Position numbers and translations under genes: made by a program
Notes under the pieces: generated by a model
What the model was told of the DNA's origin: nothing
Databases searched by the model: none
Seen by the model: the letters and a program-made list of their open reading frames with translations, nothing else
Shown here: in pieces, positions 3,216 through 62,547 of the stretch
How positions within the stretch are numbered: position 1 is the first letter of the stretch
How the letters are laid out: every line of letters begins with the position of its first letter
DNA from: Escherichia phage AV122
Direction: 5' to 3' (one strand)
DNA: 64,000 bases
Sequence record: OR352952.1

Positions 3216-3244
3216 AAAATAAAAAAGGACTCCCGAAGGAGTCC
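3216..3244 (-). terminator. rho-independent terminator
   Basis: Hairpin GGACUCC-UUCG-GGAGUCC followed by U-run on minus-strand transcript. Confidence 0.55.
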
Positions 3245-3249
3245 TCAAC

Positions 3250-3714: not shown

Positions 3715-3963
3715 TTACTTCAGTGTTACCACAAAGTGACGAACTGCTTTTCGTGCAGCAGAAGCCAGAGGCTTAGCATATTTAAGTTCATCTTTTTCCT
3801 GAAGCTCAGCAGCTAATGCAGTTTGAGCAGGATTCAGATGTTTGAAATAACGCAGGATTTCAAGAGCTTCGGCTTCAACATCAATAGATGCGCCATAGTT
3901 TTCGTGACCATTATTCCATGCGTTTCGTTGCAGTTCAAGAGCGTGTTGTAATTGTTTAATCAT
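3715..3963 (-). CDS. rIII: rIII lysis-inhibition accessory protein (by size and position)
   Basis: 82 aa, located between 30.x cluster and gene 31 as in T4. Confidence 0.7.
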   Translation of the reverse strand: MIKQLQHALELQRNAWNNGHENYGASIDVEAEALEILRYFKHLNPAQTALAAELQEKDELKYAKPLASAARKAVRHFVVTLK

Positions 3964-5964: not shown

Positions 5965-6197
5965 AGTACGCCATACACCCTTTGTGCTTCAACTAATCCA
6001 TCAAAATCCAATTTGAGATGTGTTATTTGGTCACCATCACCTGGATTCACAATTACTAATACTGAACGAGGAGTTTCGGTAATAACGCGAACCGATGTTT
6101 CTGGAAATCGTTCAGAAACCTTATTTACCAATTCCTGAGCAAATAGTTTAACTTTTTCTTGGAATTCTTTAACAGTAATTGGTTTTTCACTTAGCAT
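5961..6197 (-). CDS. hypothetical protein (cd.x cluster)
   Basis: 78-aa ORF. Confidence 0.55.
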   Translation of the reverse strand: MLSEKPITVKEFQEKVKLFAQELVNKVSERFPETSVRVITETPRSVLVIVNPGDGDQITHLKLDFDGLVEAQRVYGVL

Positions 6198-6718
6198 GTT
6201 AATCCCAGCTCCTTACTTTCAACGTTTTTAACTAATTTGACAGAAACTAATTCGGCATCTTGGGTAATCATTACCGGGCCTTCTTCATACTCTTCAAGAT
6301 ATTCTAGAGCTTTCTTTTTAGCTTCTTCCTTCGTATCAGTTTGAGCATAGATATAAAACATGCAACCAGTAATACCTACTACTTTCCACTTAATTTCTTT
6401 ATCAGTTTTAATTTCAAATTTACTGACAGAATCATCTTTTTGAACTTCTTCGAAAAAATAATATTCTGACATATAAGTAATTGAAAATAGCGGGCTATCT
6501 TTGTAGCATTCGCCCATTACATCAACAGCTTTATACCAGCAGTCATCAATTTCGCGTTTAATGCTAATAACATTTTTCGCAGGATCTATTTTTACTTTAA
6601 ATGAATTTTCCCCAATAAATTGAGCAATTCGTTTATTAGCCCCACAAGTTTCATTAAAAATATCTTTATATCCAGCTTTAAAGCGATAAACCTTATCTTC
6701 TTCAAACCATTCGCTCAT
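6191..6718 (-). CDS. hypothetical protein (cd.x cluster)
   Basis: 175-aa ORF with early promoter 6750-6779 upstream. Confidence 0.6.
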   Translation of the reverse strand: MSEWFEEDKVYRFKAGYKDIFNETCGANKRIAQFIGENSFKVKIDPAKNVISIKREIDDCWYKAVDVMGECYKDSPLFSITYMSEYYFFEEVQKDDSVSKFEIKTDKEIKWKVVGITGCMFYIYAQTDTKEEAKKKALEYLEEYEEGPVMITQDAELVSVKLVKNVESKELGLTC

Positions 6719-7260: not shown

Positions 7261-8675
<1,415 letters not shown>

Positions 8676-10107: not shown

Positions 10108-11695
<1,588 letters not shown>

Positions 11696-11722: not shown

Positions 11723-12901
11723 TTAAAAATATTTTTTAAAACTCATCATAACTTTATCATCAACATCATTATCAATCTGTGCAACAAGGTAAGATGACAG
11801 TTCTACTTCTTGTGGCGCGGATTGAACATTATCAGAATTAAGATATTCACGAATCCAAGGATATGGATGTTTAACCGGAGCATCGGTAATTGGGCATGGA
11901 AGACCACACTGTTTCATACGAGATACGGTTAAGTAATCAATAAAGCTCCACATGCTATTTGTATTTAATCCAGGAACATCGCCATCTTTAAATAAATGAA
12001 CTGCCCAATCTTTTTCTTGGCGGTTAACTTCCATGAAAATATCAACTGCTTCTTGTTCACACTCTTGAGCAATTTTAACCCATTCATCGCCGTCAGTGCC
12101 AAGTTGAAGTTGACGAATAATATATTGGGTGCCTTTAAGGTGAAGCTGTTCATCGCGTGCAATGAACTTCATAATCTTGGCATTACCTTCCATGATTTCC
12201 ATGTTCTTATGGAAGTTAAAGGTACATGCGAAAGATACATAAAAACGAATAGCTTCCAATGCGTTGATTACATGAAGGCAAAGGTAAAGGGATTTCATTA
12301 GCTCACGCTTCCAATACATCTCATGCTCAATAGCATCTTCAATATCGTCTTCGTCTGCATTAATTTCTTTTTGGTATTCGATATCAGCTTTAGCATTCTG
12401 CCAATAGCGAGTTTTCTCAATAACGTCGTCGTAATAACGACCGATAGATTCAGCACGTTTCATGATAGCGTCATCTAACAGAATTTCATCAAATACCTTA
12501 GATGGGTCTGTATAGAGGTTACGCATGATATGGGTATATGAACGAGAGTGGATAGTCTCACTAAAAGTCCATGTAGCAACCCATGTATCAAGACTTGGGT
12601 CTGAAATTAATGACATAAGTGCAGAAGACGGTGCACGACCCTGAATGCTATCTAGAAGTGATTGATACTTCAGGTTATTAGTAAAAATATCTTGCTGATA
12701 CTGAGGAAGCTTGTTAAATTGCGCAGCATCCATCATTAAGTTTACTTCTTCAGGACGCCAGAAAAATGACAACTGCTTTTCGGTTAAATCTTCAAAAACT
12801 TTATGGCGTTGAATATCATAACGCGCAATACCAAGACCTGAACCGAAGAACATAGGTTCTTTTAAAACATCAACTGGATTTGTATTAAAAACTGTGCTCA
12901 T
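11723..12901 (-). CDS. nrdB: ribonucleotide reductase small subunit, uninterrupted
   Basis: 392-aa continuous ORF with di-iron ligand-rich helical sequence; no intron gap. Confidence 0.9.
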   Translation of the reverse strand: MSTVFNTNPVDVLKEPMFFGSGLGIARYDIQRHKVFEDLTEKQLSFFWRPEEVNLMMDAAQFNKLPQYQQDIFTNNLKYQSLLDSIQGRAPSSALMSLISDPSLDTWVATWTFSETIHSRSYTHIMRNLYTDPSKVFDEILLDDAIMKRAESIGRYYDDVIEKTRYWQNAKADIEYQKEINADEDDIEDAIEHEMYWKRELMKSLYLCLHVINALEAIRFYVSFACTFNFHKNMEIMEGNAKIMKFIARDEQLHLKGTQYIIRQLQLGTDGDEWVKIAQECEQEAVDIFMEVNRQEKDWAVHLFKDGDVPGLNTNSMWSFIDYLTVSRMKQCGLPCPITDAPVKHPYPWIREYLNSDNVQSAPQEVELSSYLVAQIDNDVDDKVMMSFKKYF

Positions 12902-12952
12902 AAATTTTCCGCTTAGTTAATAGATAGTGACTCGTCCGTGAGTCAAATTATA

Positions 12953-15217
12953 TCATAATTTACAGGATGAACAATCTTCAGCTTTTGGAGTTTCTATTTC
13001 ATAATCATCAGTACCGGAACCGTCGCGGGTATTATGATAATAGAAATTTTTTCCGCCAAAATACCAAAAATACAAAAGGTCATCAATCATTATTGACATT
13101 GGAACCTTTCCTTTTGGAAAAATCTGCGGGTCATAATATGTATTCGCTGAAGCTGATTGACATACCCATTTAAGCATAATAGCTACCTGCGTAAGATAAG
13201 GTTTATTACCTTTCTTAGCTAATTTCCACGTATAATCATACAGGTCTATGTTATGCTCAATATTGGGCACGACTTGATTAAAGGAACCCTCTTTTGATTC
13301 TTTAACAGAGACTGGTCCACGTGGAGGCTCGATACCGTTTGTACTGTTAGAAACTTGGGAAGATGACTCACATGGCATAAGTGCTGATAATGTGCTATTA
13401 CGGATGCCAAAGAGCTTAAGGTCTTCCCGCAGCGACGACCAGTCACAAACGTATTTTGGAGCTGCGATTTGGTCAATCTTTTTATTGTACCAGTCGATAG
13501 GTAATTCGCCTCGAGACCAACGAGTGTCTGAATAATATTCGCAAGGTCCTTTTTCTTTGGCGAGCTTAATGGATGCTTTAATGAGTCCATACTGTAATCT
13601 CTCAAATAGTTCATGTGTTAAATCGTTAGCATCTTCATAAGAAGCAAAATTACTTGCCAGCCAAGCTGCATAGTTAGTAACACCGACGCCAAGGTTTCGA
13701 CGCTTTTTAGCTTTTTCTGCTTCAGGAACTGGATATCCTTGGTAATCCAAAAGATTATCAAGAGCGCGTACTTGAACTTCTGCTAATTCATTAATTTTAT
13801 CTTGGTCTTGCCAATCGAAGTTATCCAACACAAACGCAGATAATGTACACAATCCAATTTCAGCATCAGGACTATTCACGTCATTTGTTGGAATAGCAAT
13901 TTCACAACACAAGTTACTCTGACGAATAGGTGCCTTTTCACGAATAAACGGAGTATAGTTATTCGTATTATCAATGAACTGTACATAAATCCTTGCTGTT
14001 CCTGAGCGTTCAGTCATGAGTAATTCAAACAGTTCACGCGCTTTAATACGCTTTTTACGAATATTAGGGTCTTTTTCTGCGGCTTCGTACAATTCACGGA
14101 AACGGTCTTGGTCTTTAAAATAAGAATAATAAAGTTCGCCACCCATTTCATGTGGACTGAACAAAGTAATGTAGTCGTTCTTTCCAAAACGTTCCATCAT
14201 CAAATCATTCAGCTGGACGCCATAATCCATATGACGGATACGGTTTTCTTCTACACCTTTGTTATTTTTCAAAACGAGAAGATTTTCAACTTCCAAATGC
14301 CAAATAGGATAATAAGCAGTAGCAGCGCCGCCACGAATTCCGCCTTGTGAACATGATTTAACTGCAGTCTGAAAATGTTTCCAAAAAGGAATAACACCAG
14401 TATGACGTACTTCACCCATGCCAATCTTAGAACCTTCGGCACGAATCATACCAACATTAATACCAATTCCAGCGCGTTTAGAGATATATTCAACAATTGA
14501 AGCGGAAGCCTTATTGATAGACTTCAATGAATCACCTGCCTCAATAACAACACATGAACTAAACTGTCGAGTCGGAGTACGACAACCAGCCATAATAGGA
14601 GTTGGCAATGAAATCTGTCGAGTAGATACTGCTTCATAAAAACGGATAACATGTTTTAATCTATCAACAGGTTCATCTTGATGCAGTGCCATTCCAATAG
14701 TCATAAATGCAAACTGCGGAGTTTCATAAATTTGACCGGTGGTTTTATCTTTGACTAGATATTTTTCTTTTAATTGCATCGCTCCGGAATAAGTAAATTC
14801 CATATCCCGCTCGTGCTTAATTTTTGATTCTAAAAATGTAATTTCTTCCGCAGAATATTTTGACAATAATTCAGGGTCATATTTCCCTTCATTTACGCAA
14901 TAAGAAATATGGTCAATAAATGAACGCGGTTCATACTGCCCGTAAACATGCTTACGAAGAGCAAACATTAAACAGCGTGCAGCTACATATTGATAATCAG
15001 GCTCTTCAACCGAAATAGAATTCGCAGCAGCCTTAATGACAATAGTCTGAATATCATCAGTTGTCATTCCATCACGGAGATAAGATTTAATATTTTCATA
15101 TAATTCATAAGGATCTACTGATGTTCCTTCAGCTGCCCAAGATAAAACTTTAATAATTTTTTGTGGGTCGAAGCTCTGAGAAACACCACTACTTTTGATA
15201 ACATTAATTAATTGCAT
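12953..15217 (-). CDS. nrdA: ribonucleotide reductase large subunit
   Basis: 754 aa; class Ia RNR catalytic motifs incl. NLCCEI and C-terminal CxxC. Confidence 0.93.
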   Translation of the reverse strand: MQLINVIKSSGVSQSFDPQKIIKVLSWAAEGTSVDPYELYENIKSYLRDGMTTDDIQTIVIKAAANSISVEEPDYQYVAARCLMFALRKHVYGQYEPRSFIDHISYCVNEGKYDPELLSKYSAEEITFLESKIKHERDMEFTYSGAMQLKEKYLVKDKTTGQIYETPQFAFMTIGMALHQDEPVDRLKHVIRFYEAVSTRQISLPTPIMAGCRTPTRQFSSCVVIEAGDSLKSINKASASIVEYISKRAGIGINVGMIRAEGSKIGMGEVRHTGVIPFWKHFQTAVKSCSQGGIRGGAATAYYPIWHLEVENLLVLKNNKGVEENRIRHMDYGVQLNDLMMERFGKNDYITLFSPHEMGGELYYSYFKDQDRFRELYEAAEKDPNIRKKRIKARELFELLMTERSGTARIYVQFIDNTNNYTPFIREKAPIRQSNLCCEIAIPTNDVNSPDAEIGLCTLSAFVLDNFDWQDQDKINELAEVQVRALDNLLDYQGYPVPEAEKAKKRRNLGVGVTNYAAWLASNFASYEDANDLTHELFERLQYGLIKASIKLAKEKGPCEYYSDTRWSRGELPIDWYNKKIDQIAAPKYVCDWSSLREDLKLFGIRNSTLSALMPCESSSQVSNSTNGIEPPRGPVSVKESKEGSFNQVVPNIEHNIDLYDYTWKLAKKGNKPYLTQVAIMLKWVCQSASANTYYDPQIFPKGKVPMSIMIDDLLYFWYFGGKNFYYHNTRDGSGTDDYEIETPKAEDCSSCKL

Positions 15218-15751: not shown

Positions 15752-16608
15752 ATTGCCATTTTCCCTTTAATTGCTGGATGCGATTCATAATTTTCAAGGA
15801 TAAAATCTTTCGGTTTCATGTATTCAGTTAACCAGTAAAGCTGTGTTTCGGTGTCACAATTTCCAAACTCTATAGGCCAATCAATTTTAAGTTCACATAG
15901 TTCTTTAGGCTCACGACGTAAAATTTCTTTACATTGCTCAGTATGATTCATATAGATGTGAGTATTACCACCAGAAAATATCAAATCTCCTGGGATAAGA
16001 TTACACATCTTAGCCACAATATGCGTCAAGGCAGCGTACGAGGCAATGTTGAATGGCAATCCCAAGAAAACATCTACACTTCTTTGGTACCATTGTAAAT
16101 CAAGATAACCATTACGCACATTAAACTGATAGAACATATGACAGGGCGGTAATGCCATTTGATTGATTTCAGCTGGATTCCATGCTGAAACGATTTGACG
16201 TCGATCAGTTGGTAATTTTTTAATACGATCAATAGTTTCAACTAATTGATCCACACCGCCGAAATCACGCCATTGTTTACCGTATATAGGACCAAGTTCA
16301 CCACTATGATATCCTAGGTCTTTAGCCTGGTTTTCATAGTTATCGTCCCAAATAGTTTTACCTTGAATAAGACTACCATGTGTGCGAAGACGTAAATCAT
16401 TAACATTGGTAGAACCGGAAATAAACCATAGAAGCTCAGCAATGCATGCATTCCACGCAAGCTTCTTAGTTGTTACCGCAGGAAAACCTTTAGTTAAATC
16501 CCAACGTAATTTAGTACCGAACAAAGCAATTGTTCCTGTGCCTGTTCGGTCATCGGTTTCATAGCCATTTTCAAAAATGTCTTTAATTAAATCTTGGTAT
16601 TGTTTCAT
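15748..16608 (-). CDS. td: thymidylate synthase, uninterrupted
   Basis: 286-aa continuous ORF; ThyA active-site region PCH and folate-binding motifs. Confidence 0.93.
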
Positions 16609-16653: not shown

Positions 16654-17001
16654 TCAATACGGTTTAGCATCAAATTTTCTCTCAATTTCAGGCGTGAAAT
16701 ATAATTCTTTACCGCGTTTGGAAAAGCGACCAATAATATGATAATTATTCTCATCAAACGTGATATTACCAATATCCATAGCTTTCAACCAAATATCGAT
16801 ATTTCTATCCAGCTTTATGTCAAAATTCCAATACGCAGAACTATTACCGAAAATACTGCAAGCGGATTCAGTGAAACAACTGCTATAAATCTTGTCTTTA
16901 GGAACTACTAATTGATATACACCTTTAATAAACTGAGGACCCTGCCACTTTGGTTGTTTCTCATCTTTTTCTAATAGAATAGGGTAATAATTAAAATTCA
17001 T
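16654..17001 (-). CDS. hypothetical protein inserted between frd and td
   Basis: 115-aa ORF; no recognisable motif. Confidence 0.55.
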   Translation of the reverse strand: MNFNYYPILLEKDEKQPKWQGPQFIKGVYQLVVPKDKIYSSCFTESACSIFGNSSAYWNFDIKLDRNIDIWLKAMDIGNITFDENNYHIIGRFSKRGKELYFTPEIERKFDAKPY

Positions 17002-17020: not shown

Positions 17021-17847
<827 letters not shown>

Positions 17848-17858
17848 ATTATCTCCTA

Positions 17859-18191
17859 TTAAAAAGGATCAGGAACATATCCGCTAGCTTTAATCATTTT
17901 AATTAACGTTACCATTCCTTTGTTAACTGCTCGTGAGATTTCATCAAAAACTTCATCACTAAAAAGTTCTAACACGCCCTTCTGAACTTTTAATTTACAG
18001 CCAACAATTTCTTCATCGCCTATAGTAAATTCATTACCACCAATTCCACCGAAAAACTTAATTACACCAGTTAACTGTCTTCCACGAGAATATGGGTCGT
18101 GTGATAAAGTAATATGAGTCACCCCGGGTACAGTTTTAAATTGGCAGCGAATATTTACTTGTGAAATTCCAGTTACATGAATGTCAGACAT
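17859..18191 (-). CDS. hypothetical protein (frd.x cluster)
   Basis: 110-aa ORF. Confidence 0.6.
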   Translation of the reverse strand: MSDIHVTGISQVNIRCQFKTVPGVTHITLSHDPYSRGRQLTGVIKFFGGIGGNEFTIGDEEIVGCKLKVQKGVLELFSDEVFDEISRAVNKGMVTLIKMIKASGYVPDPF

Positions 18192-20210: not shown

Positions 20211-20293
20211 TTTTATTTCCTTTTTAATTTAATTAACAGTTGGTGCTATGACGATGTATGACCTCATAGCTGGTCAGTGAGATAATTATAATC

Positions 20294-20301
20294 TATTTAT
20301 A
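20294..20301 (-). promoter_or_regulatory. late promoter box upstream of gene 32
   Basis: TATAAATA on minus strand about 85 nt upstream of gene 32 ATG. Confidence 0.45.
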
Positions 20302-20309
20302 ATAAGCAA

Positions 20310-27569: not shown

Positions 27570-27574
27570 ATTGA

Positions 27575-27598
27575 GGGAGCCTTCGGGTTCCCTTTTTC
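27575..27598 (+). terminator. rho-independent terminator after gene 35
   Basis: Hairpin GGGAGCC-UUCG-GGUUCCC then UUUUU. Confidence 0.6.
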
Positions 27599-28305: not shown

Positions 28306-31300
28306 ATGGCTACTTTAAAACAAATACAATTTAAAAGAAGCAAAACTGCAGGTCAACGTCCTGCTGCTTCAGTATTAGCCGAAGGTGAATTGGCTATAAA
28401 CTTAAAAGACCGTACTCTTTTTACTAAAGATGACTCGGGAAATATTATTGATTTAAGCATTACCGCTGGCGGTAATATTAGTGGAAATATCACTCAAACT
28501 GGCGATTATACACAGACTGGAAAATTTAATTTAATTGGTCCGCAAATTGTAGCAAGCGGTGGATATATTGAGTTTAATTATCGTACTACTGGAAGTGGGG
28601 CTTGGTCCGGTCAACACACTGCAAAAGCTCCAATTTTTGTAGATTTAAGCTCAGCTACTTCCACATCTGAATATAATCCTATAATTAAACAGCGCTTTAA
28701 AGATGGTACTTTTTCATTAGGTACTTTAGTTTCTGAAGGTTCGTTGAAGATTCATTATATCAATGAATCTGGCGATTCGAAATATTGGACGTTTCGACGT
28801 GACGGCGGATTTACTGTTGACGGTGGAGGTTTAGCAGTATCAGGAGGTAGTATAACTACAACCGGAAATATTGCAGCTCTCGGAAATATTACTTCGCCTC
28901 AGATTAATACTAAAAATATTATTTTAGATACAAAAGCATTTGGACAATACGACAGTCAGTCTTTAGTTAATTACGTATACCCGGGCACCGGTGAAGAAAA
29001 TGGTATAAACTATCTTCGTAAAGTTCGGTCTAAATCAGGTGGAACTATTTACCATGAAATTTGTACAGCTCAGACTGGGCTAGCTGATGAAGTTTCTTGG
29101 TGGACTGGTAATACACCGTTATTTAAACTATACGGTATTCGTAACGACGGTAGAATGATTATTCGCAATAGCTTGGCCATCGGGACCGTGACTGAAGGAT
29201 ACCCGTCAAGCGATTATGGAAATACCGGGGTAATGGGAGATAGGTATTTAGCTATTGGCGATAATGCTTCTGGACTTAAATGGGTTCGTACTGGCGTTTA
29301 TGACCTGATGGCTAATGGTATTTCATCTGCTACCATTTTGAACAACGGTATTAACAGCACCAAGAAATTGATGGTTGGTTATAGTCGAGATTCCGGTTCT
29401 ACTTGGGATTTTCCAAATAACAACCAGGCAATGTTTACTGCGCGTACCGATGTTGATGGTAATAATAACGGTGATGGGCAAACTCATATCGGTTATAACA
29501 GTAATTCTAAAATGTATCACTATTTCCGTGGTGCAGGTCGTATGTCCGTTAGTATGGGCGATGGACTTCTTGTTGAGCCGGGTATTTTAGACATTAAAAC
29601 TGGGTCTAATAGAGTTGCTATTAGAGCAGATGGTACATTTGACTCAACCCAACGTATTTCTATGCGTACGGGCTTGTTTTTAAATGGTGATGATAATACT
29701 AATGCTTTATCGTTTAAAGCTCCTACCGGTGTTGACGGAACCAAAACCATTAACTGGGATGCAGGCACTCGTAACGGACAGAATAAAAATACTGTTTCAA
29801 TTAAAGCATGGGGTAATGCCTTTAACTCAGTTCCCGGTATTAGAGAAACTGTATTTGAAGTATATGATTCACAAGGTTATTATTTTTATTCACAACGCCA
29901 GCGCCCAGAAGGTTCTGAAACTGTTGGGCCCGTTGTAACCCAGTTCAATGGACCAGTTAATGCTAACGGCTCTATTAGCACTGCAGGAAATCTTAAAGTT
30001 GATGGTTTAAGCACTTTAAACGGTAATGTTACAATGAAGAACGGCTTGTTTGTCCAAGGTGGTTCTTCTATTACTGGGCAAGTTAAAATCGGCGGAACAA
30101 CAAATGCATTAAGAATTTGGAATGCCGAATATGGCGCTATTTTCCGTCGTTCAGAAAGTAACTTTTATATTATTCCAACCAATAAAAATGAAGGCGAAAG
30201 TGGAGACATTCACAGCTCTTTAAGACCTGTGAGAATAGGATTAAACGATGGCATGGTTGGGTTAGGAAGAGATTCTTTTATAGTAGATCAAAATAATGCT
30301 TTAACTACTATAAACAGTAACTCTCGCATTAATGCCAACTTTAGAATGCAATTAGGACAAAATGCTTATATAGATATTGAGGCTTCTGATGGAGTTCGCC
30401 CAACAGGTTGTGGTTCCTTTGCATCTCAGAATGACGTAAACGTCAGAGCTCCAATTTATATGAATATAGAGCGTACTGCTACTTCTGAATACATTCCTAT
30501 TGTTAAACAACGGTATGTAAAGGGTGATAGTACTTATTCTATTGGTACCTTGATTTCTCAGGGAGACTTCCGCGTCCATTATCACCAGGGAACTAGCACC
30601 AATGGCGTAGATTTGAGTTGGGAATTCCGTCGCACAGGCGATTTCCGCGCGCCAGGTAAAATTATTGCCGGTGCTGCTACTCTTGGCACGGATGGTAATA
30701 TTACTGGCGGTTCTGGTAACTTTGCTAACTTGAACACAACTATCGAATCATTAAAAACCGATATTGTTTCAAGTTACCCAATCGGTGCTCCTATTCCATG
30801 GCCAACGGATACTCCTCCTGACGGTTACGCTATTATGGAAGGCCAGACCTTTGATAAGTCTGCATACCCAAAATTGGCTATGGCTTACCCATCTGGCGTA
30901 ATTCCAGATATGCGCGGGCAAACTATCAAGGGTAAACCAAGTGGTCGTGATGTATTAAGTGCAGAAGCTGATGGTATTAAGGCTCATAGCCATAGTGCAT
31001 CGGCTTCAAGTACTGACTTAGGTACTAAAACCACGTCAAGTTTTGATTATGGTACTAAAACATCTTCAAGTTTTGATTATGGTACGAAGAACACTAATAG
31101 TACTGGTGGTCATACTCACTCTGTAAGTGGTACAACAAGTGCTGCTGGTGAGCATGCTCACCACTTAGGTCTGTTATTAGTTAACGGTGGTGATGCTTTG
31201 TACGGGTATACAACCGTTGGTAACAGCCTCCCTAGAACACTTGACTGGCTTGACAGAAGAGACAATAAATTCCCCAACACTAACACAACTGGTAACCATA

Positions 31301-31509
31301 CACATACATGGTCTGGCACTACAAGCAATGCTGGTGCTCATACACATACTGTAGGTATTGGTGCTCATACACATACTGTAGGTATTGGTGCTCATACTCA
31401 CTCGGTAGCAATTGGTTCGCATGGTCATACTATCACTGTAAATAGTACAGGTAATACAGAAAACACGGTTAAAAACATTGCTTTTAACTATATCGTTCGT
31501 TTAGCATAA
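28306..31509 (+). CDS. 37: long tail fibre distal subunit gp37 (receptor-binding tip)
   Basis: 1067 aa; C-terminal His-rich GxHxH repeats; tandem coding repeats. Confidence 0.92.
31021..31090 (+). repeat. tandem 30-nt coding repeat in gene 37
   Basis: GGTACTAAAA..AGTTTTGATTAT repeated 2.3 times, encoding GTKT[TS]SSFDY. Confidence 0.8.
31333..31440 (+). repeat. tandem 27-nt coding repeat in gene 37 (His-rich)
   Basis: GGTGCTCATACACATACTGTAGGTATT x2 exact plus two diverged copies, encoding GAHTHTVGI. Confidence 0.8.
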
Positions 31510-35619: not shown

Positions 35620-35769
35620 TTACTGCATGAATGTGATAACTATCATGATAACACGTTGAATTCCGAACGCAAGAAGACCTCCTGCTACGGCTGGAACAAC
35701 GCCTAAACCCGCCAGTAAAATGCTACCAGATACTAATGCAGCGCTTGTAATACCAATGAATGGACTCAT
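35620..35769 (-). CDS. small hydrophobic protein downstream of gene 52
   Basis: 49-aa ORF from manual translation, ATGA overlap with gene 52 stop; followed by terminator. Confidence 0.35.
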   Translation of the reverse strand: MSPFIGITSAALVSGSILLAGLGVVPAVAGGLLAFGIQRVIMIVITFMQ

Positions 35770-37094
35770 TTGATTTCCTCTAAATCTTTGGTGTATTCGG
35801 TAACTACATCAGTAGTTTTCCAATATTCGTTTTCTTCTTTTTTAGCTTTAGCTTCTTCATCAAGTTTCTTTGCTTCATCGGAAGTCATATGAAAAATATT
35901 CATTCCAACTAGTTTATCAACATAAGAAGAATACATCTCAATTTTAGAAAGTTCTTCAGTCAGTTCTTTACGAGTTTTACCCTGTACAACAATTTCACCT
36001 GAAATTACTTTCTTAATGAAATGCGCCTTGGCAAAGGCTAAACGAAATGCTGATTCAGTTTCTTTGATTTTGTTATCAATTCGTTTTTGGACATAAGTTT
36101 TACGAACTTCAACGAAGTCTTTGATTAAATCAACTACGTTATCGTAAACTTGCAGCTTTCCTTTCTCATTAATAACAGTAATATTCTGTGAACGACGCTC
36201 AATCAACCCGAAGTCTTTCATAATTTTAGCGTGACGTTCTTCTTCATTATCGCTCAAAGAGTATTCTTTGCGGAATTTAACTTTGAAGCCAAAACCATGC
36301 TCACCACAAGCATCATCCCACGTAATGAAGCCTTTATCTTCAAGCGGGTCTAAGATTTTACTCACATAAGTTTCACGATCATACTTATACGGAATCTCAG
36401 TGATATGCATTTGAGTTCGTGAAGTAAACTTATATGTTCCACGAATTTCATACTGCCCATCAATTTCAACAACTTCACCACGAAATTCTGGGAATTCTAC
36501 CTTCGGTTTAGTTACTTTCTTTCCTTGAAGAGCTTGTAATACAGCTTTCCTGACAGAAGAAACACTATGAGGAAGAATGTAAGTTGCATAACCAGTTGCA
36601 ATACCGGAAACACCATTAAGAAGAACAGTAGGAATAATAGGCAAATAGAAAGCAGGCGGAATGTGTTCTTTATCTTGATGTACCGGAGCATATTCAGTAT
36701 CTTTATATACGTTATAGAAATTTTTACTTACACGAGCAAAAATATAACGACTTGCGGCTGCCTTTTGGACAGTACGAGAACCGAAGTTTCCTTGGCCATC
36801 TAACAGAGGAAAGTTATTATTCCAAGTATTAGCCATCAAAGCACCTGCGTCTTGCGCAGAGTTTTCACCATGATGATATCCAAGGTCCGCTACACCACCT
36901 GCAATAGAAGCGAGTTTGTGAAACTTATCTTTATTTCCTCGTGCCAAATCAAGAGCTCGAGCAATAACAAATCGTTGAACTGGCTTAAATCCGTCAATCA
37001 TATTTGGGATAGCACGATTTTCAACCGTGTACATAGCATAAGCCAATGCTTCATTATCAATGATACTTTTTAAATCGCGATTATTCAGTTGCAT
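35766..37094 (-). CDS. 52: DNA topoisomerase II medium subunit gp52
   Basis: 442 aa; GyrA-like catalytic region, recognised as T4 gp52. Confidence 0.95.
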   Translation of the reverse strand: MQLNNRDLKSIIDNEALAYAMYTVENRAIPNMIDGFKPVQRFVIARALDLARGNKDKFHKLASIAGGVADLGYHHGENSAQDAGALMANTWNNNFPLLDGQGNFGSRTVQKAAASRYIFARVSKNFYNVYKDTEYAPVHQDKEHIPPAFYLPIIPTVLLNGVSGIATGYATYILPHSVSSVRKAVLQALQGKKVTKPKVEFPEFRGEVVEIDGQYEIRGTYKFTSRTQMHITEIPYKYDRETYVSKILDPLEDKGFITWDDACGEHGFGFKVKFRKEYSLSDNEEERHAKIMKDFGLIERRSQNITVINEKGKLQVYDNVVDLIKDFVEVRKTYVQKRIDNKIKETESAFRLAFAKAHFIKKVISGEIVVQGKTRKELTEELSKIEMYSSYVDKLVGMNIFHMTSDEAKKLDEEAKAKKEENEYWKTTDVVTEYTKDLEEIK

Positions 37095-37098
37095 AAAT

Positions 37099-37239
37099 TT
37101 ACCATACTAGTGAATGTAGTGCCATAATAACATCAGAAATGAAAAGCACGACTTGAATTAATCCGAACATTATTCCGTAATATAATGCTATCAATAAAAT
37201 AGCAAGGGCTAATGAATAGCCCAAGATTTTCTTAATCAT
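37099..37239 (-). CDS. small membrane protein (52.1 position)
   Basis: 46-aa hydrophobic ORF, manual translation. Confidence 0.35.
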   Translation of the reverse strand: MIKKILGYSLALAILLIALYYGIMFGLIQVVLFISDVIMALHSLVW

Positions 37240-37390
37240 TAGTAGATAACAACACAAATGTTAAATATGCACACATACCCTGAGCTAAAGCTTGCGAAAA
37301 CACACTGCTGGCATCAATACAGATAGTTAAAACACATGCTACTATCCAACAAATAAATGAAATAACTCCTAATAATTTTGCAATATTCAT
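37232..37390 (-). CDS. small membrane protein (ac position, possible acridine-resistance determinant)
   Basis: 52-aa hydrophobic ORF between 52.1-like ORF and stp. Confidence 0.4.
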   Translation of the reverse strand: MNIAKLLGVISFICWIVACVLTICIDASSVFSQALAQGMCAYLTFVLLSTND

Positions 37391-37397
37391 ATTTTCC

Positions 37398-37478
37398 TCA
37401 CTGGCGTCCGAAGACGCCTTTGGTTTTAAGATTGTTACGATAGAACTGCATCACGTGTTCGTTGTGGAAATTACTCAT
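37398..37478 (-). CDS. stp: Stp peptide (26 aa)
   Basis: Manual translation gives [26 protein letters not shown], matching my recollection of T4 Stp; ATG overlaps ndd stop (TAATG). Confidence 0.8.
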
Positions 37479-37933
37479 TAATATGCCTGCAAAACAAATT
37501 TAAAGTTATCAGCCAACATACGGTTCATTTCTTCAAGTGTTTGATACTCAGAATGATGATTACGAGTAAACGCTAAAGCTAACTGACCTTTACCAAATCC
37601 CGTCGTCAGAGGTTTCATCTTAGAAGCAGGCAGATAAAATACTGTGTATGGAACATTGTTATTTGCAATAGTACGCGCAAGCTGAGACCGACGCTGACGA
37701 ATATGACTTAGAACCGCACTGAATCCTTGCTTAGAACGCTGATTACCTACATAAAATCGTGCAGACACGCACGGATTACTAAATGGACGACCATCTAATT
37801 TACACACTAAAAAGTAAAATCCAGGTTTAGATAAAATATCTTTATGTGGAACTCCCAAAAACCATTCACCGTTCTTGATTGTACCAATAACGGTAGCGCC
37901 TGCGTTGTTCAGATCAGTAACAGTCATATATTT
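37478..37933 (-). CDS. ndd: nucleoid disruption protein Ndd
   Basis: 151 aa from ATG at 37933 ([13 protein letters not shown]); track start is upstream extension. Confidence 0.9.
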
Positions 37934-38889: not shown

Positions 38890-39153
38890 TCATAGTTCAA
38901 TCTCAATGATTTCCAGGTGTTTTTGTTTTATTGCCTTTTTAACACAATCATGGACTAAATATGACCATGAATCATTATATTCTCCATTAACTAATCGTTG
39001 GAGATCTTCACGTGATGATAAGTAAGGTTGATCTGATTCCCATTTTGATAAAAATACTGCAGTAAAAATATCTCCTTCACCTGTAGTTGAAGTCGTAAAT
39101 GCAATAAATTCACCGGTAATTTTATGTTTAGCGTAATAAAATTTAAATTTCAT
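38890..39153 (-). CDS. hypothetical protein (start trimmed)
   Basis: 87 aa from ATG 39153; promoter 39181-39210 lies inside track extension. Confidence 0.5.
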   Translation of the reverse strand: MKFKFYYAKHKITGEFIAFTTSTTGEGDIFTAVFLSKWESDQPYLSSREDLQRLVNGEYNDSWSYLVHDCVKKAIKQKHLEIIEIEL

Positions 39154-39180
39154 TTTTACTCCTCCGTAGCTGATAGTTGT

Positions 39181-39210
39181 ATAGTACCACGGTCCTTGTG
39201 GTATGTAAAC
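39181..39210 (-). promoter_or_regulatory. early promoter
   Basis: GTTTACA, 17 nt, TACTAT. Confidence 0.55.
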
Positions 39211-39228
39211 CATTTTGTGAAATTTTTT

Positions 39229-39840: not shown

Positions 39841-39865
39841 TTAAAACAAAAGGGCCGAAGCCCTT
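39841..39865 (-). terminator. rho-independent terminator
   Basis: Hairpin AGGGC-UUCG-GCCCU followed by UUUUGUUUU. Confidence 0.5.
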
Positions 39866-40063: not shown

Positions 40064-40095
40064 AATTTTCCTTAATGTGATAAGGGCCGAAGCCC

Positions 40096-41034
40096 TTATT
40101 TAAATTGTTCTGTAACGTCTTCAACTACTTCGTATTGGCAGGTACGCATTTTAGCATCGTTGTAATCAATCGGAATTGATACTACATCGCGAGGATGAAC
40201 TTTAACTTTTACAACTCGGCTGGTTGAACTGCCAAAGTGACGAATATAAGATTTAGAACACACATGCAGACCGCGAGAACAAGTTTGTGTATCATCGTCA
40301 TTCACACGAGTACGTGGCATTTTAACTACTTTACCCGGACTGTTATCAAAGGTGTTTGAGTGACAGTCAAAGTAATTGCTGCGAACTACTTTCCAAGCAT
40401 AGAAGTAACCATCTTCGGTGATTTCAATATCGTTTGCTACCAAGAAATCAAAGAGTCGAGATACCGCTTTTTGGCTTGGGTTTTCCAGCAGATTTTCCAA
40501 GAACGGAAAATAAAATTCAAAGTTTTCACCTTTTTCCATCGAGTCAAGAATACGATCAACCAAACCAGACCGCAATTCAATATTTTGATAGAACAAGCTT
40601 CCACCTTCAATTCGAACATCGCCGGAAATATATTTTTCAACAGCACGACGAACATTAATTTTTTGTGCCGCTTCTTCCAGCTTATCCGCTACAAGCAGAT
40701 TAAGAATTTCCTGGAAGTTTGAATGAGTATTAGGAGTTGCGTTATAAGTTACACCGTCAACAGTAATTGAAATGAATTTTTTAGATGCATTCCAAATAAT
40801 GTCAGATTTAGCAACTGGAGCAATAACTGCATCGCTATTAACTTTAACTGTAATGTCACCGCTAATAGTAACTTTAGGGCGTTTAGCTTCTTCAGCATTT
40901 TTCAAAACACGACGGATTGTGTCAACCGATACATCCTTCCAATAAGCCAATTCCTGTTGAGTGTAATTACCGCTTGAATACAGTTTAACAATTTCAGCTT
41001 GTTCGTTTTTGGTCAGGCATTTAATATTGTACAT
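40096..41034 (-). CDS. rIIB: rIIB protein
   Basis: 312 aa; MYNIKCLTKNEQAEIVKLYSSGNYTQQELA recognised. Confidence 0.93.
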   Translation of the reverse strand: MYNIKCLTKNEQAEIVKLYSSGNYTQQELAYWKDVSVDTIRRVLKNAEEAKRPKVTISGDITVKVNSDAVIAPVAKSDIIWNASKKFISITVDGVTYNATPNTHSNFQEILNLLVADKLEEAAQKINVRRAVEKYISGDVRIEGGSLFYQNIELRSGLVDRILDSMEKGENFEFYFPFLENLLENPSQKAVSRLFDFLVANDIEITEDGYFYAWKVVRSNYFDCHSNTFDNSPGKVVKMPRTRVNDDDTQTCSRGLHVCSKSYIRHFGSSTSRVVKVKVHPRDVVSIPIDYNDAKMRTCQYEVVEDVTEQFK

Positions 41035-45361: not shown

Positions 45362-45378
45362 AGAGGCCCGAAGGCCTT

Positions 45379-56213: not shown

Positions 56214-56246
56214 AAAAACGAAAAAAGGAACCCCGAAGGATTCCTT
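56214..56246 (-). terminator. rho-independent terminator after soc
   Basis: Hairpin AAGGAAUCC-UUCGG-GGUUCCUU then U-run. Confidence 0.55.
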
Positions 56247-62190: not shown

Positions 62191-62547
62191 TTAAAAGAAT
62201 TTAAACTTTTTCTTTGATCTTTTATTAAATGCATCTTGTAGTTGCATTGTAATACATTTTTCTACATGAGGAGCTAACTCAGCTTTTCTTTCTTGGTCAA
62301 GAACAGCAAAGTCCATTACGACTTTTCCATCAACCCAATCTAATTTTGTCACATACACAATGTGTGTAGAACCATCTTCTAGTTTAATGACAATCTCCTG
62401 GATAACATTTTCCATGGCAGATTTAATTATCTTAAGAGATTCATTAAAAAGACGTTCTTTTCTTTCTTCTTCCCCCTCCGAAGAGGGGGATTCATCGATA
62501 ATTTCTAGATCTAAATCATCTTTATTCATTAAATTCTTCCATATCAC
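62191..62547 (-). CDS. 40: gp40-position protein
   Basis: 118 aa between uvsX and 41. Confidence 0.65.
   Translation of the reverse strand: MIWKNLMNKDDLDLEIIDESPSSEGEEERKERLFNESLKIIKSAMENVIQEIVIKLEDGSTHIVYVTKLDWVDGKVVMDFAVLDQERKAELAPHVEKCITMQLQDAFNKRSKKKFKFF

What the first reader, a model, noticed from the sequence alone, without database searches (positions are those of the whole stretch)
37398..37478. Intact 26-codon stp ORF overlapping ndd stop, alongside pseT and rnlA
Manual translation of the minus strand gives [26 protein letters not shown], which I recognise as Stp, too short for the ORF track. In T4, Stp activates the host PrrC anticodon nuclease, and PNK (pseT, 7450-8355) with RNA ligase 1 (rnlA, 10108-11232) repair the cleaved tRNA. 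The full trigger-plus-repair set is present in this window.
Basis: partly seen in the sequence, partly recalled or inferred. Interest (0 to 1): 0.45.

Follow-up and report, generated by a model that had tools for sequence, protein, structure and literature searches.

The report
T4 stp gene, correctly spotted
The 26-codon reading frame is the well-known phage T4 gene stp, identical in protein sequence to T4's own, sitting in its usual place in a T4-like phage that also carries the two known tRNA-repair genes, so the finding is correct but ordinary.

Summary
Confirmed and already known. Window 37398..37478 (minus strand) translates to [26 protein letters not shown]. That is 100% identical to T4 Stp (NP_049878); the DNA differs at two synonymous sites. 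It matches Pfam PF08133 (anticodon nuclease activator) at 75.3 bits against a cut-off of 25. It lies in the T4 gene order 52 / 52.1 / ac / stp / ndd, and its ATG shares one base with the ndd stop (TAATG).

pseT (7450..8355) is 96% identical to T4 polynucleotide kinase-phosphatase. rnlA (10108..11232) is 98% identical to T4 RNA ligase 1. The window is collinear with T4 127,117-168,903, so it is a Tequatrovirus.

Stp acts on the type IC restriction enzyme EcoprrI, which it inhibits. PrrC, which is bound to EcoprrI, senses this inhibition and cleaves tRNA-Lys. Pnkp and Rnl1 then repair the tRNA.

Side observations:
- stp is not annotated in most GenBank relatives.
- Its last codons form a conserved C(UUCG)G hairpin.
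- Homologues occur in unrelated siphoviruses.

None of this is new biology. Interest is low.

The parts
37398..37478 (-). stp CDS, 26 codons plus TGA: [26 protein letters not shown]
   Evidence: Translation. Identical to T4 NP_049878. Two synonymous nucleotide differences, His5 CAC/CAT and Thr19 ACC/ACT. PF08133 at 75.3 bits against a cut-off of 25. PHROG 6763.
37478..37933 (-). ndd (nucleoid disruption protein), 151 aa. Its TAA stop overlaps the stp ATG by one base (TAATG), which suggests translational coupling. The only Shine-Dalgarno-like element for stp is a weak AGG 7 nt upstream of the ATG.
   Evidence: PF06591 full length, E = 3.9e-94. Sequence. Same arrangement in T4, where ndd ends and stp starts at record position 165585.
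37232..37390 (-). ac (acridine resistance, small membrane protein), immediately downstream of stp. Its SD GAGG overlaps the stp stop codon (CAG-TGA-GG).
   Evidence: Synteny with T4 ac. PHROG 2501, E = 3.7e-25. Alignment to T4 shows one extra codon.
37403..37418 (-). C(UUCG)G tetraloop hairpin GGCGUC-UUCG-GACGCC, embedded in stp codons 21-25 (G V F G R)
   Evidence: Present in both the MFE and centroid folds. Flagged as terminator-like on the + strand, where TTTGGTTTT follows it. Annotated as an ARNOLD terminator in phage D5505. Conserved in T4, RB68, Dhakavirus and Gaprivervirus; absent from T2-type stp and from the siphoviral homologues.
7450..8355 (-). pseT, polynucleotide 5'-kinase / 3'-phosphatase (Pnkp), 301 aa
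   Evidence: 96% identical to T4 PseT with no gaps. PF13671 P-loop kinase domain plus PF25109 HAD_PNKP phosphatase domain. GCPGSGKS P-loop and DVDGT motif are visible in the alignment.
10108..11232 (-). rnlA (gene 63), RNA ligase 1, 374 aa
   Evidence: 98% identical to T4 Rnl1 with no gaps. PF09511 plus PF20819. The lysine of the TKEDG motif (K99) is present.
35766..37094 (-). gene 52 (topoisomerase II medium subunit); synteny anchor downstream of 52.1, ac and stp
   Evidence: PF00521, E = 6.5e-77. T4 gene order.

Best explanation
This is the orthologue of phage T4 gene stp in a T4-like (Tequatrovirus) phage.

Expression (inferred). It is an early gene read on the minus strand, probably translated by coupling to the ndd stop, since the two codons overlap.

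Mechanism (established for the identical T4 peptide, inferred here):
1. The 26-residue peptide binds the host type IC restriction-modification complex (EcoprrI, also EcoR124I) through its N-proximal 18 residues. It blocks restriction but not modification.
2. In the minority of E. coli strains whose type IC locus carries prrC, this inhibition unmasks the latent PrrC anticodon nuclease. Unmasking needs GTP hydrolysis, dTTP and unmodified EcoprrI DNA sites.
3. PrrC cuts tRNA-Lys 5' of the wobble base, leaving 2',3'-cyclic phosphate and 5'-OH ends.
4. The phage's Pnkp (pseT) heals the ends and Rnl1 (rnlA) seals them, so wild-type phage still grows.

Shown here: the sequence, its identity to T4, its synteny, purifying selection on the peptide, and intact pseT and rnlA. 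Inferred from identity to T4 plus the literature: every biochemical step.
For: - The peptide is identical to T4 Stp, with only synonymous differences.
- PF08133 at 75.3 bits and PHROG 6763.
- The gene order 52 / 52.1 / ac / stp / ndd is as in T4. The window is collinear with T4 127,117-168,903 at about 93-98% identity in most blocks.
- Purifying selection acts on residues 1-18. There is no amino-acid change against T2 or TOPO13, while the C-terminal tail is replaced. Against Kagunavirus K1ind2, in a completely different genomic context, there are 10 synonymous and 0 non-synonymous changes. This matches the published finding that residues 4-14 carry the suppressor mutations and that the last 8 codons are largely dispensable (PMC3014915).
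- pseT is 96% and rnlA 98% identical to T4, with both domains of each present.
- Mechanism taken from PMC3014915, PMC1484252, PMC12409349 and PMC12707154.
Against: Nothing in the sequence argues against it. Caveats:
- No experiment or host sequence is available, so whether this phage ever meets a prr+ host is unknown.
- How Stp inhibits EcoprrI at the molecular level is still described as unknown (PMC12707154). No chain in the PDB matches the peptide.
- From my own knowledge, T-even DNA carries glucosylated hydroxymethylcytosine and is generally refractory to type I restriction. The selective benefit of Stp to a T-even phage is therefore not self-evident.
Confidence: 0.95

Rival explanations
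1. The 26-codon frame is a chance ORF in AT-rich DNA between ndd and ac, and is not translated.
For: Short ORFs are abundant here: 59 ORFs of at least 20 aa in 4 kb. stp has only a weak Shine-Dalgarno-like AGG upstream. Many GenBank relatives do not annotate it.
Against: - 100% identity to a genetically and biochemically characterised T4 peptide.
- Pfam E = 2e-21.
- All differences from T4 and from T2 in codons 1-18 are synonymous. Against K1ind2 there are 10 synonymous and 0 non-synonymous changes.
- The siphoviral homologues have their own strong SD sequences (GGAG, GAGG) in unrelated contexts.
Confidence: 0.01
2. The sequence is conserved as an RNA or DNA element rather than for its peptide. 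The element would be the C(UUCG)G hairpin acting as an mRNA stabiliser, a regulator of ac translation, or a terminator of antisense transcription.
For: - A perfect 6-bp stem with a UUCG loop sits in codons 21-25, just upstream of the ac SD.
- It is conserved in three Tevenvirinae genera. TH22 has an A-to-G change that keeps a U.G pair.
- It reads as terminator-like on the + strand and is annotated as a terminator in D5505.
- CUUCGG hairpins are enriched in the window: 9 found against 0.8 expected.
Against: - The hairpin covers only 16 of the 81 nt. The functionally critical codons 1-18 lie outside it and are under clear protein-level selection.
- K1ind2 and Rtp encode GVFGK with different codons and no hairpin, so that motif is also conserved as protein.
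- T2-type phages lack the hairpin yet keep codons 1-18.
- There is no U-run after the hairpin on the sense strand.
- The 131-nt region as a whole folds no better than shuffles, z = -1.0.

At most the hairpin is an additional overlaid feature, not an alternative to the gene.
Confidence: 0.03
3. Stp in T-even phages is kept for a different, still unknown target. Both type IC inhibition and PrrC triggering would be side effects, because glucosyl-HMC DNA is already immune to type I enzymes.
For: - T-even DNA modification makes anti-type-I activity seem redundant (my own knowledge).
- The molecular mechanism of Stp is still called unknown (PMC12707154).
- Residues 1-18 are near-invariant across hundreds of Tequatrovirus records: 422 of 817 matching records are at least 99% identical.
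Against: - Inhibition of EcoprrI and EcoR124I by plasmid-expressed Stp is documented, and the same residues serve both activities (PMC3014915).
- The family also occurs in siphoviruses (Drexlerviridae, Kagunavirus). To my knowledge these are not reported to hypermodify their DNA, so an anti-restriction role would give them a direct benefit.
- No evidence for another target was found.
Confidence: 0.05

Closest known systems
Phage T4 Stp (gene stp, NP_049878; Pfam PF08133 'anticodon nuclease activator'; PHROG 6763)
   Same: Identical 26-residue sequence. Same position between ndd and ac. Same one-base TAATG overlap with the ndd stop. Same embedded C(UUCG)G hairpin.
   Different: Only two synonymous nucleotide substitutions. 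The surrounding genome is a different Tequatrovirus mosaic, with a best match of about 94-96% over 24 kb to any record in the phage collection.
T2-type Stp (T2, TOPO13): [27 protein letters not shown]
   Same: Residues 1-18 are identical, and so are the position and the overlap with ndd.
   Different: The C-terminal tail is different and there is no UUCG hairpin. The window carries the T4-type tail.
Siphoviral Stp homologues (Rtp rtp6, U136B_009, P818, K1ind2)
   Same: Same family by PF08133, at 35-67 bits. The core motif is conserved: S-N/S-x-H-N-x-H-V/I-M-Q-x-Y-R-x-x-L/I-K.
   Different: Unrelated genomes (Drexlerviridae, Guernseyvirinae) with their own SD sequences and no ndd or ac neighbours. 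In Rtp and U136B a HAD_PNKP phosphatase-only protein lies nearby instead of a full Pnkp.
T4 tRNA repair pair Pnkp (pseT) and Rnl1 (rnlA, gene 63)
   Same: 96% and 98% identity, the same lengths and the same domain sets.
   Different: An extra 106-aa ORF of unknown function (8355..8675, PHROG 2364) lies between pseT and pseT.1 relative to T4.
Other 'guard' systems triggered by anti-restriction proteins (PARIS sensing Ocr; Ronin)
   Same: Same logic: a phage inhibitor of restriction is itself the trigger of an abortive-infection effector (PMC12409349; bioRxiv 10.1101/2023.04.06.535777).
   Different: Different triggers and effectors. They are relevant only as an analogy, and nothing of them is encoded in this window.

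Membership tests
Stp / PF08133 anticodon nuclease activator | Profile match above the curated threshold over the full length of a peptide of about 26 residues | tested here: met
   75.3 bits against a cut-off of 25, residues 1-26 on profile positions 1-26. PHROG 6763, E = 4.4e-21.
Stp / PF08133 anticodon nuclease activator | Intact N-proximal 18 residues, including positions 4-14 where loss-of-function suppressor mutations cluster | tested here: met
   Residues 1-26 are identical to T4. The positional information comes from PMC3014915.
Stp / PF08133 anticodon nuclease activator | Tevenvirinae synteny: between ndd and ac, upstream of 52.1 and 52 | tested here: met
   The same order is seen in RB68, VR7, T2 and TOPO13.
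Stp / PF08133 anticodon nuclease activator | Selection acting on the peptide (synonymous changes far exceeding non-synonymous ones) | tested here: met
   Codons 1-18, synonymous versus non-synonymous changes: T4 1/0, T2 2/0, K1ind2 10/0.
Stp / PF08133 anticodon nuclease activator | Inhibits type IC restriction (EcoprrI, EcoR124I) and activates latent PrrC | not testable with these tools
   Known for the identical T4 peptide (PMC3014915). It needs in vivo or in vitro assays.
T4 Pnkp (pseT) | N-terminal P-loop 5'-kinase domain plus C-terminal HAD (DxDxT) 3'-phosphatase domain | tested here: met
   PF13671 on residues 6-149 and PF25109 on 160-302. GCPGSGKS and DVDGT are present and identical to T4. 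All 12 substitutions lie outside these motifs.
T4 RNA ligase 1 (rnlA) | Nucleotidyltransferase domain with the adenylated lysine (K99 in TKEDG), plus the Rnl1-specific C-terminal domain | tested here: met
   PF09511 on residues 52-246 and PF20819 on 253-374. K99, E159, K240 and K242 are conserved. The 6 substitutions lie elsewhere. The list of essential residues is from my own knowledge of the Shuman-lab mutagenesis work.
Complete prr exclusion circuit (host side) | Host locus hsdM-hsdS-prrC-hsdR encoding EcoprrI and PrrC | not testable with these tools
   The window is phage DNA only and the host is unknown.

The most novel reading that the evidence does not exclude
The last codons of stp (21-25, GVFGR) double as a conserved C(UUCG)G RNA hairpin that has a function of its own. 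Candidates are setting an mRNA 3' end or stabilising the transcript, modulating translation of the ac gene (whose SD begins 3 nt downstream), or terminating antisense (+ strand) transcription. This dual coding would explain why the T4-type tail is kept across Tequatrovirus, Dhakavirus and Gaprivervirus although the tail is nearly dispensable for Stp activity.
Probability: 0.2. Interest if true: 0.2.

Novelty: already known. Interest (0 to 1): 0.07.

Why it matters
It matters little as a discovery. The Stp / EcoprrI-PrrC / Pnkp-Rnl1 circuit has been textbook T4 biology since the 1980s and 1990s, and this window simply carries an identical copy.

There are two practical points:
- stp is skipped by most automated annotations of T4-like genomes because it is only 26 codons long. 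That includes the closest relatives of this window. Defence and counter-defence inventories of phage collections will therefore under-count it.
- The peptide's molecular mode of action on type IC enzymes is still unsolved, so it remains a good target for structural work. That is true of T4 itself and not specific to this window.

Tried and rejected
- Chance ORF: rejected on identity to T4 and on the substitution pattern.
- A larger RNA structure across stp: the 131-nt fold is no more stable than shuffles (z = -1.0). Only the local tetraloop hairpin stands out.
- The hairpin as a sense-strand intrinsic terminator: rejected, because no U-run follows it on the minus strand. The T-run is on the opposite strand.
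- Promoter scan around stp: 13 sites against 11.2 expected from shuffles. This is uninformative, so no promoter is claimed.
- Solved structure containing Stp: none at E up to 10.
- An identical phage record: none found. The best match over 24 kb is 94-96% identity at 95-97% coverage, so the window is a further Tequatrovirus mosaic.
- Structure prediction was not attempted, because the peptide is below the tool's 30-residue minimum.
- The large protein-database and metagenome searches were not spent, because the phage collection already answered the question.
- One literature search failed on a two-character term and was repeated.

Full report
**Observation.** The reverse complement of window 37398..37478 reads ATG AGT AAT TTC CAC AAC GAA CAC GTG ATG CAG TTC TAT CGT AAC AAT CTT AAA ACC AAA GGC GTC TTC GGA CGC CAG TGA. 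It translates to [26 protein letters not shown], and the mechanical ORF list contains it. Its ATG shares its A with the TAA stop of the upstream ORF (…TAT TAATG AGT…). That upstream ORF, from the ATG at 37933, is a full-length match to the T4 Ndd family (PF06591, E = 3.9e-94). The coordinates, the peptide and the "overlaps the ndd stop" statement are all correct.

An ORF of 26 codons is not evidence of a gene by itself. One search lists 59 ORFs of at least 20 aa in this 4-kb stretch.

**What it is.** The phage collection places the window in Tequatrovirus. Region 36900-38300 matches 567 records, the best at 99.4% (slur03, slur14, Lutter). In the T4 reference record the gene order is 52, 52.1, ac, stp, ndd. 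stp lies at 165505-165585 and ndd starts its stop codon at 165585.

- Translation of the T4 stp CDS gives exactly the same 26 residues.
- The DNA alignment shows two differences inside the gene, both synonymous: His5 CAC/CAT and Thr19 ACC/ACT.
- The peptide matches Pfam PF08133 "anticodon nuclease activator family" end to end, at 75.3 bits against a gathering cut-off of 25.
- It also matches PHROG 6763 "activator of host PrrC lysyl-tRNA endonuclease".
- tblastn finds it in 817 phage records, 422 of them at 99% identity or more.

**Selection on the peptide.** I extracted homologues from T2, TOPO13, VR7, TH22, RB68, two Dhakavirus phages, and the siphoviruses Rtp, U136B, P818 and K1ind2.

- Codons 1-18 carry only synonymous changes against T4 (1) and against T2 and TOPO13 (2 each).
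- Against Kagunavirus K1ind2 there are 10 synonymous and 0 non-synonymous changed codons. That phage has an entirely unrelated genome, and the ORF there has its own GGAG ribosome-binding site.
- The C-terminal tail is variable. T4-type is [10 protein letters not shown]2-type is KNFGILGFKK, and U136B is unrelated after residue 18.

This matches the published genetics. Suppressor mutations cluster in residues 4-14, and deleting the last 8 codons only moderately lowers activity (PMC3014915). The chance-ORF rival and the "only an RNA element" rival are therefore rejected.

**The repair genes.**

| Gene | Window | Length | Identity to T4 | Domains and motifs |
|---|---|---|---|---|
| pseT (Pnkp) | 7450..8355 (-) | 301 aa | 96%, no gaps | P-loop kinase (GCPGSGKS) and HAD phosphatase (DVDGT), both intact |
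| rnlA (Rnl1) | 10108..11232 (-) | 374 aa | 98%, no gaps | PF09511 and PF20819; TKEDG lysine present |

The window is collinear with T4 127,117-168,903 over window positions 1-41,034.

**How it works.** This is established for the identical T4 peptide and inferred here.

1. Stp, expressed as a delayed-early product, inhibits the restriction activity of the type IC enzyme EcoprrI, and of EcoR124I. It does not inhibit modification, and it has no effect on type IA enzymes.
2. In prr+ hosts the anticodon nuclease PrrC is held latent by association with EcoprrI. Stp binding unmasks it. Unmasking needs GTP hydrolysis, dTTP and unmodified EcoprrI DNA sites.
3. PrrC cleaves tRNA-Lys 5' of the wobble base.
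4. T4 Pnkp and Rnl1 heal and seal the break.

These steps are taken from PMC3014915, PMC1484252, PMC12409349 and PMC12707154. Stp's direct target is the restriction enzyme, not PrrC. And triggering is the host's counter-measure, not the phage's purpose.

The molecular mechanism of inhibition is still described as unknown, and no PDB chain matches the peptide. The weak SD (AGG, 7 nt upstream of the ATG) together with the TAATG overlap suggests translational coupling to ndd. That is my inference from the sequence.

**Things noticed.**

(a) Codons 21-25 form a perfect C(UUCG)G tetraloop hairpin, GGCGUC-UUCG-GACGCC, at 37403..37418. The ac SD begins 3 nt downstream of it.
- It is kept in T4, RB68, Dhakavirus and Gaprivervirus. 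VR7 has loop UUUG, and TH22 has a synonymous A-to-G change that gives a U.G pair.
- It is absent from T2-type stp.
- It is also absent from the siphoviral homologues, which nevertheless encode GVFGK. The peptide motif is therefore conserved independently of the hairpin.
- On the + strand a T-rich run follows it, so it scores as terminator-like. The D5505 record annotates it as a terminator.
- CUUCGG hairpins are enriched in the window, 9 against 0.8 in shuffles. This fits the known abundance of such hairpins in T4 mRNA (PMC4371310).

(b) stp is not annotated in the closest relatives Lutter and D5505. Only 2 of the 28 sampled 100%-identical, full-length hits carry an stp annotation, and about 20 show only ndd under the match.

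(c) In Rtp and U136B the "polynucleotide kinase" genes near stp contain only the HAD_PNKP phosphatase domain.

(d) Relative to T4 the window lacks the nrdB and td introns with their endonucleases, and also mobE and segG. It has several extra small ORFs of unknown function.

**Verdict.** This is an already known gene in its known context. Interest is low. The only mildly open points are the overlaid hairpin and the systematic under-annotation of stp.

Noticed in passing
window 37403-37418 (minus strand): A C(UUCG)G tetraloop hairpin (GGCGUC-UUCG-GACGCC) lies inside stp codons 21-25, with the ac Shine-Dalgarno starting 3 nt downstream. It is conserved in T4, RB68, Dhakavirus and Gaprivervirus. 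It is absent from T2-type stp and from the siphoviral homologues. On the + strand TTTGGTTTT follows it, making it terminator-like, and phage D5505 annotates it as a terminator.
   Followed up: partly
window, whole: 3225-3246, 3864-3875, 27573-27594, 39850-39865, 40080-40099, 45364-45377, 56225-56246, 62471-62490: CUUCGG-loop hairpins with stems of 4-9 bp are about ten-fold enriched: 9 found against 0.8 in mononucleotide shuffles. This fits the classic T4 UUCG hairpins.
   Followed up: partly
L007 (K1ind2) 2501-2578; L006 (Rtp) 2432-2524; L008 (U136B) 2393-2473; L015 (P818) 2501-2578: Stp-family peptides occur in unrelated siphoviruses (Kagunavirus, Drexlerviridae). No CDS is annotated at the K1ind2 or P818 copies. 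K1ind2 codons 1-18 differ from the window by 10 synonymous and 0 non-synonymous changes.
   Followed up: partly
L006 1444-1983 (rtp4); L008 3043-3606 (U136B_012): The genes annotated 'polynucleotide kinase' close to stp in these T1-like phages match only the HAD_PNKP phosphatase domain, with no P-loop kinase domain. Whether they take part in tRNA repair is unclear.
   Followed up: no
L003 and L004 1501-1587, compared with window 37398-37424: Two alternative Stp C-terminal tails circulate within Tequatrovirus: T4-type KTKGVFGRQ (this window) and T2-type KNFGILGFKK / KNFGILGSKNS. Residues 1-18 are identical in both.
   Followed up: partly
L009 (Lutter) 791-879; L010 (D5505) 791-879; hits H31-H58: stp is left unannotated in the nearest GenBank relatives. 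Only 2 of the 28 sampled hits with 100% identical, full-length Stp carry an stp annotation.
   Followed up: partly
window 12225-12228, 12901-12957, 16056-16061, 20273-20309: Relative to T4 the window lacks the nrdB intron with I-TevIII, mobE, the td intron with I-TevI, and segG. These are clean junctions in the collinearity map.
   Followed up: partly
window 6191-6718, 8355-8675, 16654-17001, 17602-18191, 38890-39213 (all minus strand): There are extra small ORFs absent from T4 at these positions. One is a 106-aa ORF inserted between pseT and pseT.1. All match PHROGs of unknown function.
   Followed up: partly
window 28455-31376: The distal long-tail-fibre gene 37 region is only 75-79% identical to T4, or unalignable, while its flanks are 95-98% identical. 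This is the usual host-range mosaicism.
   Followed up: no
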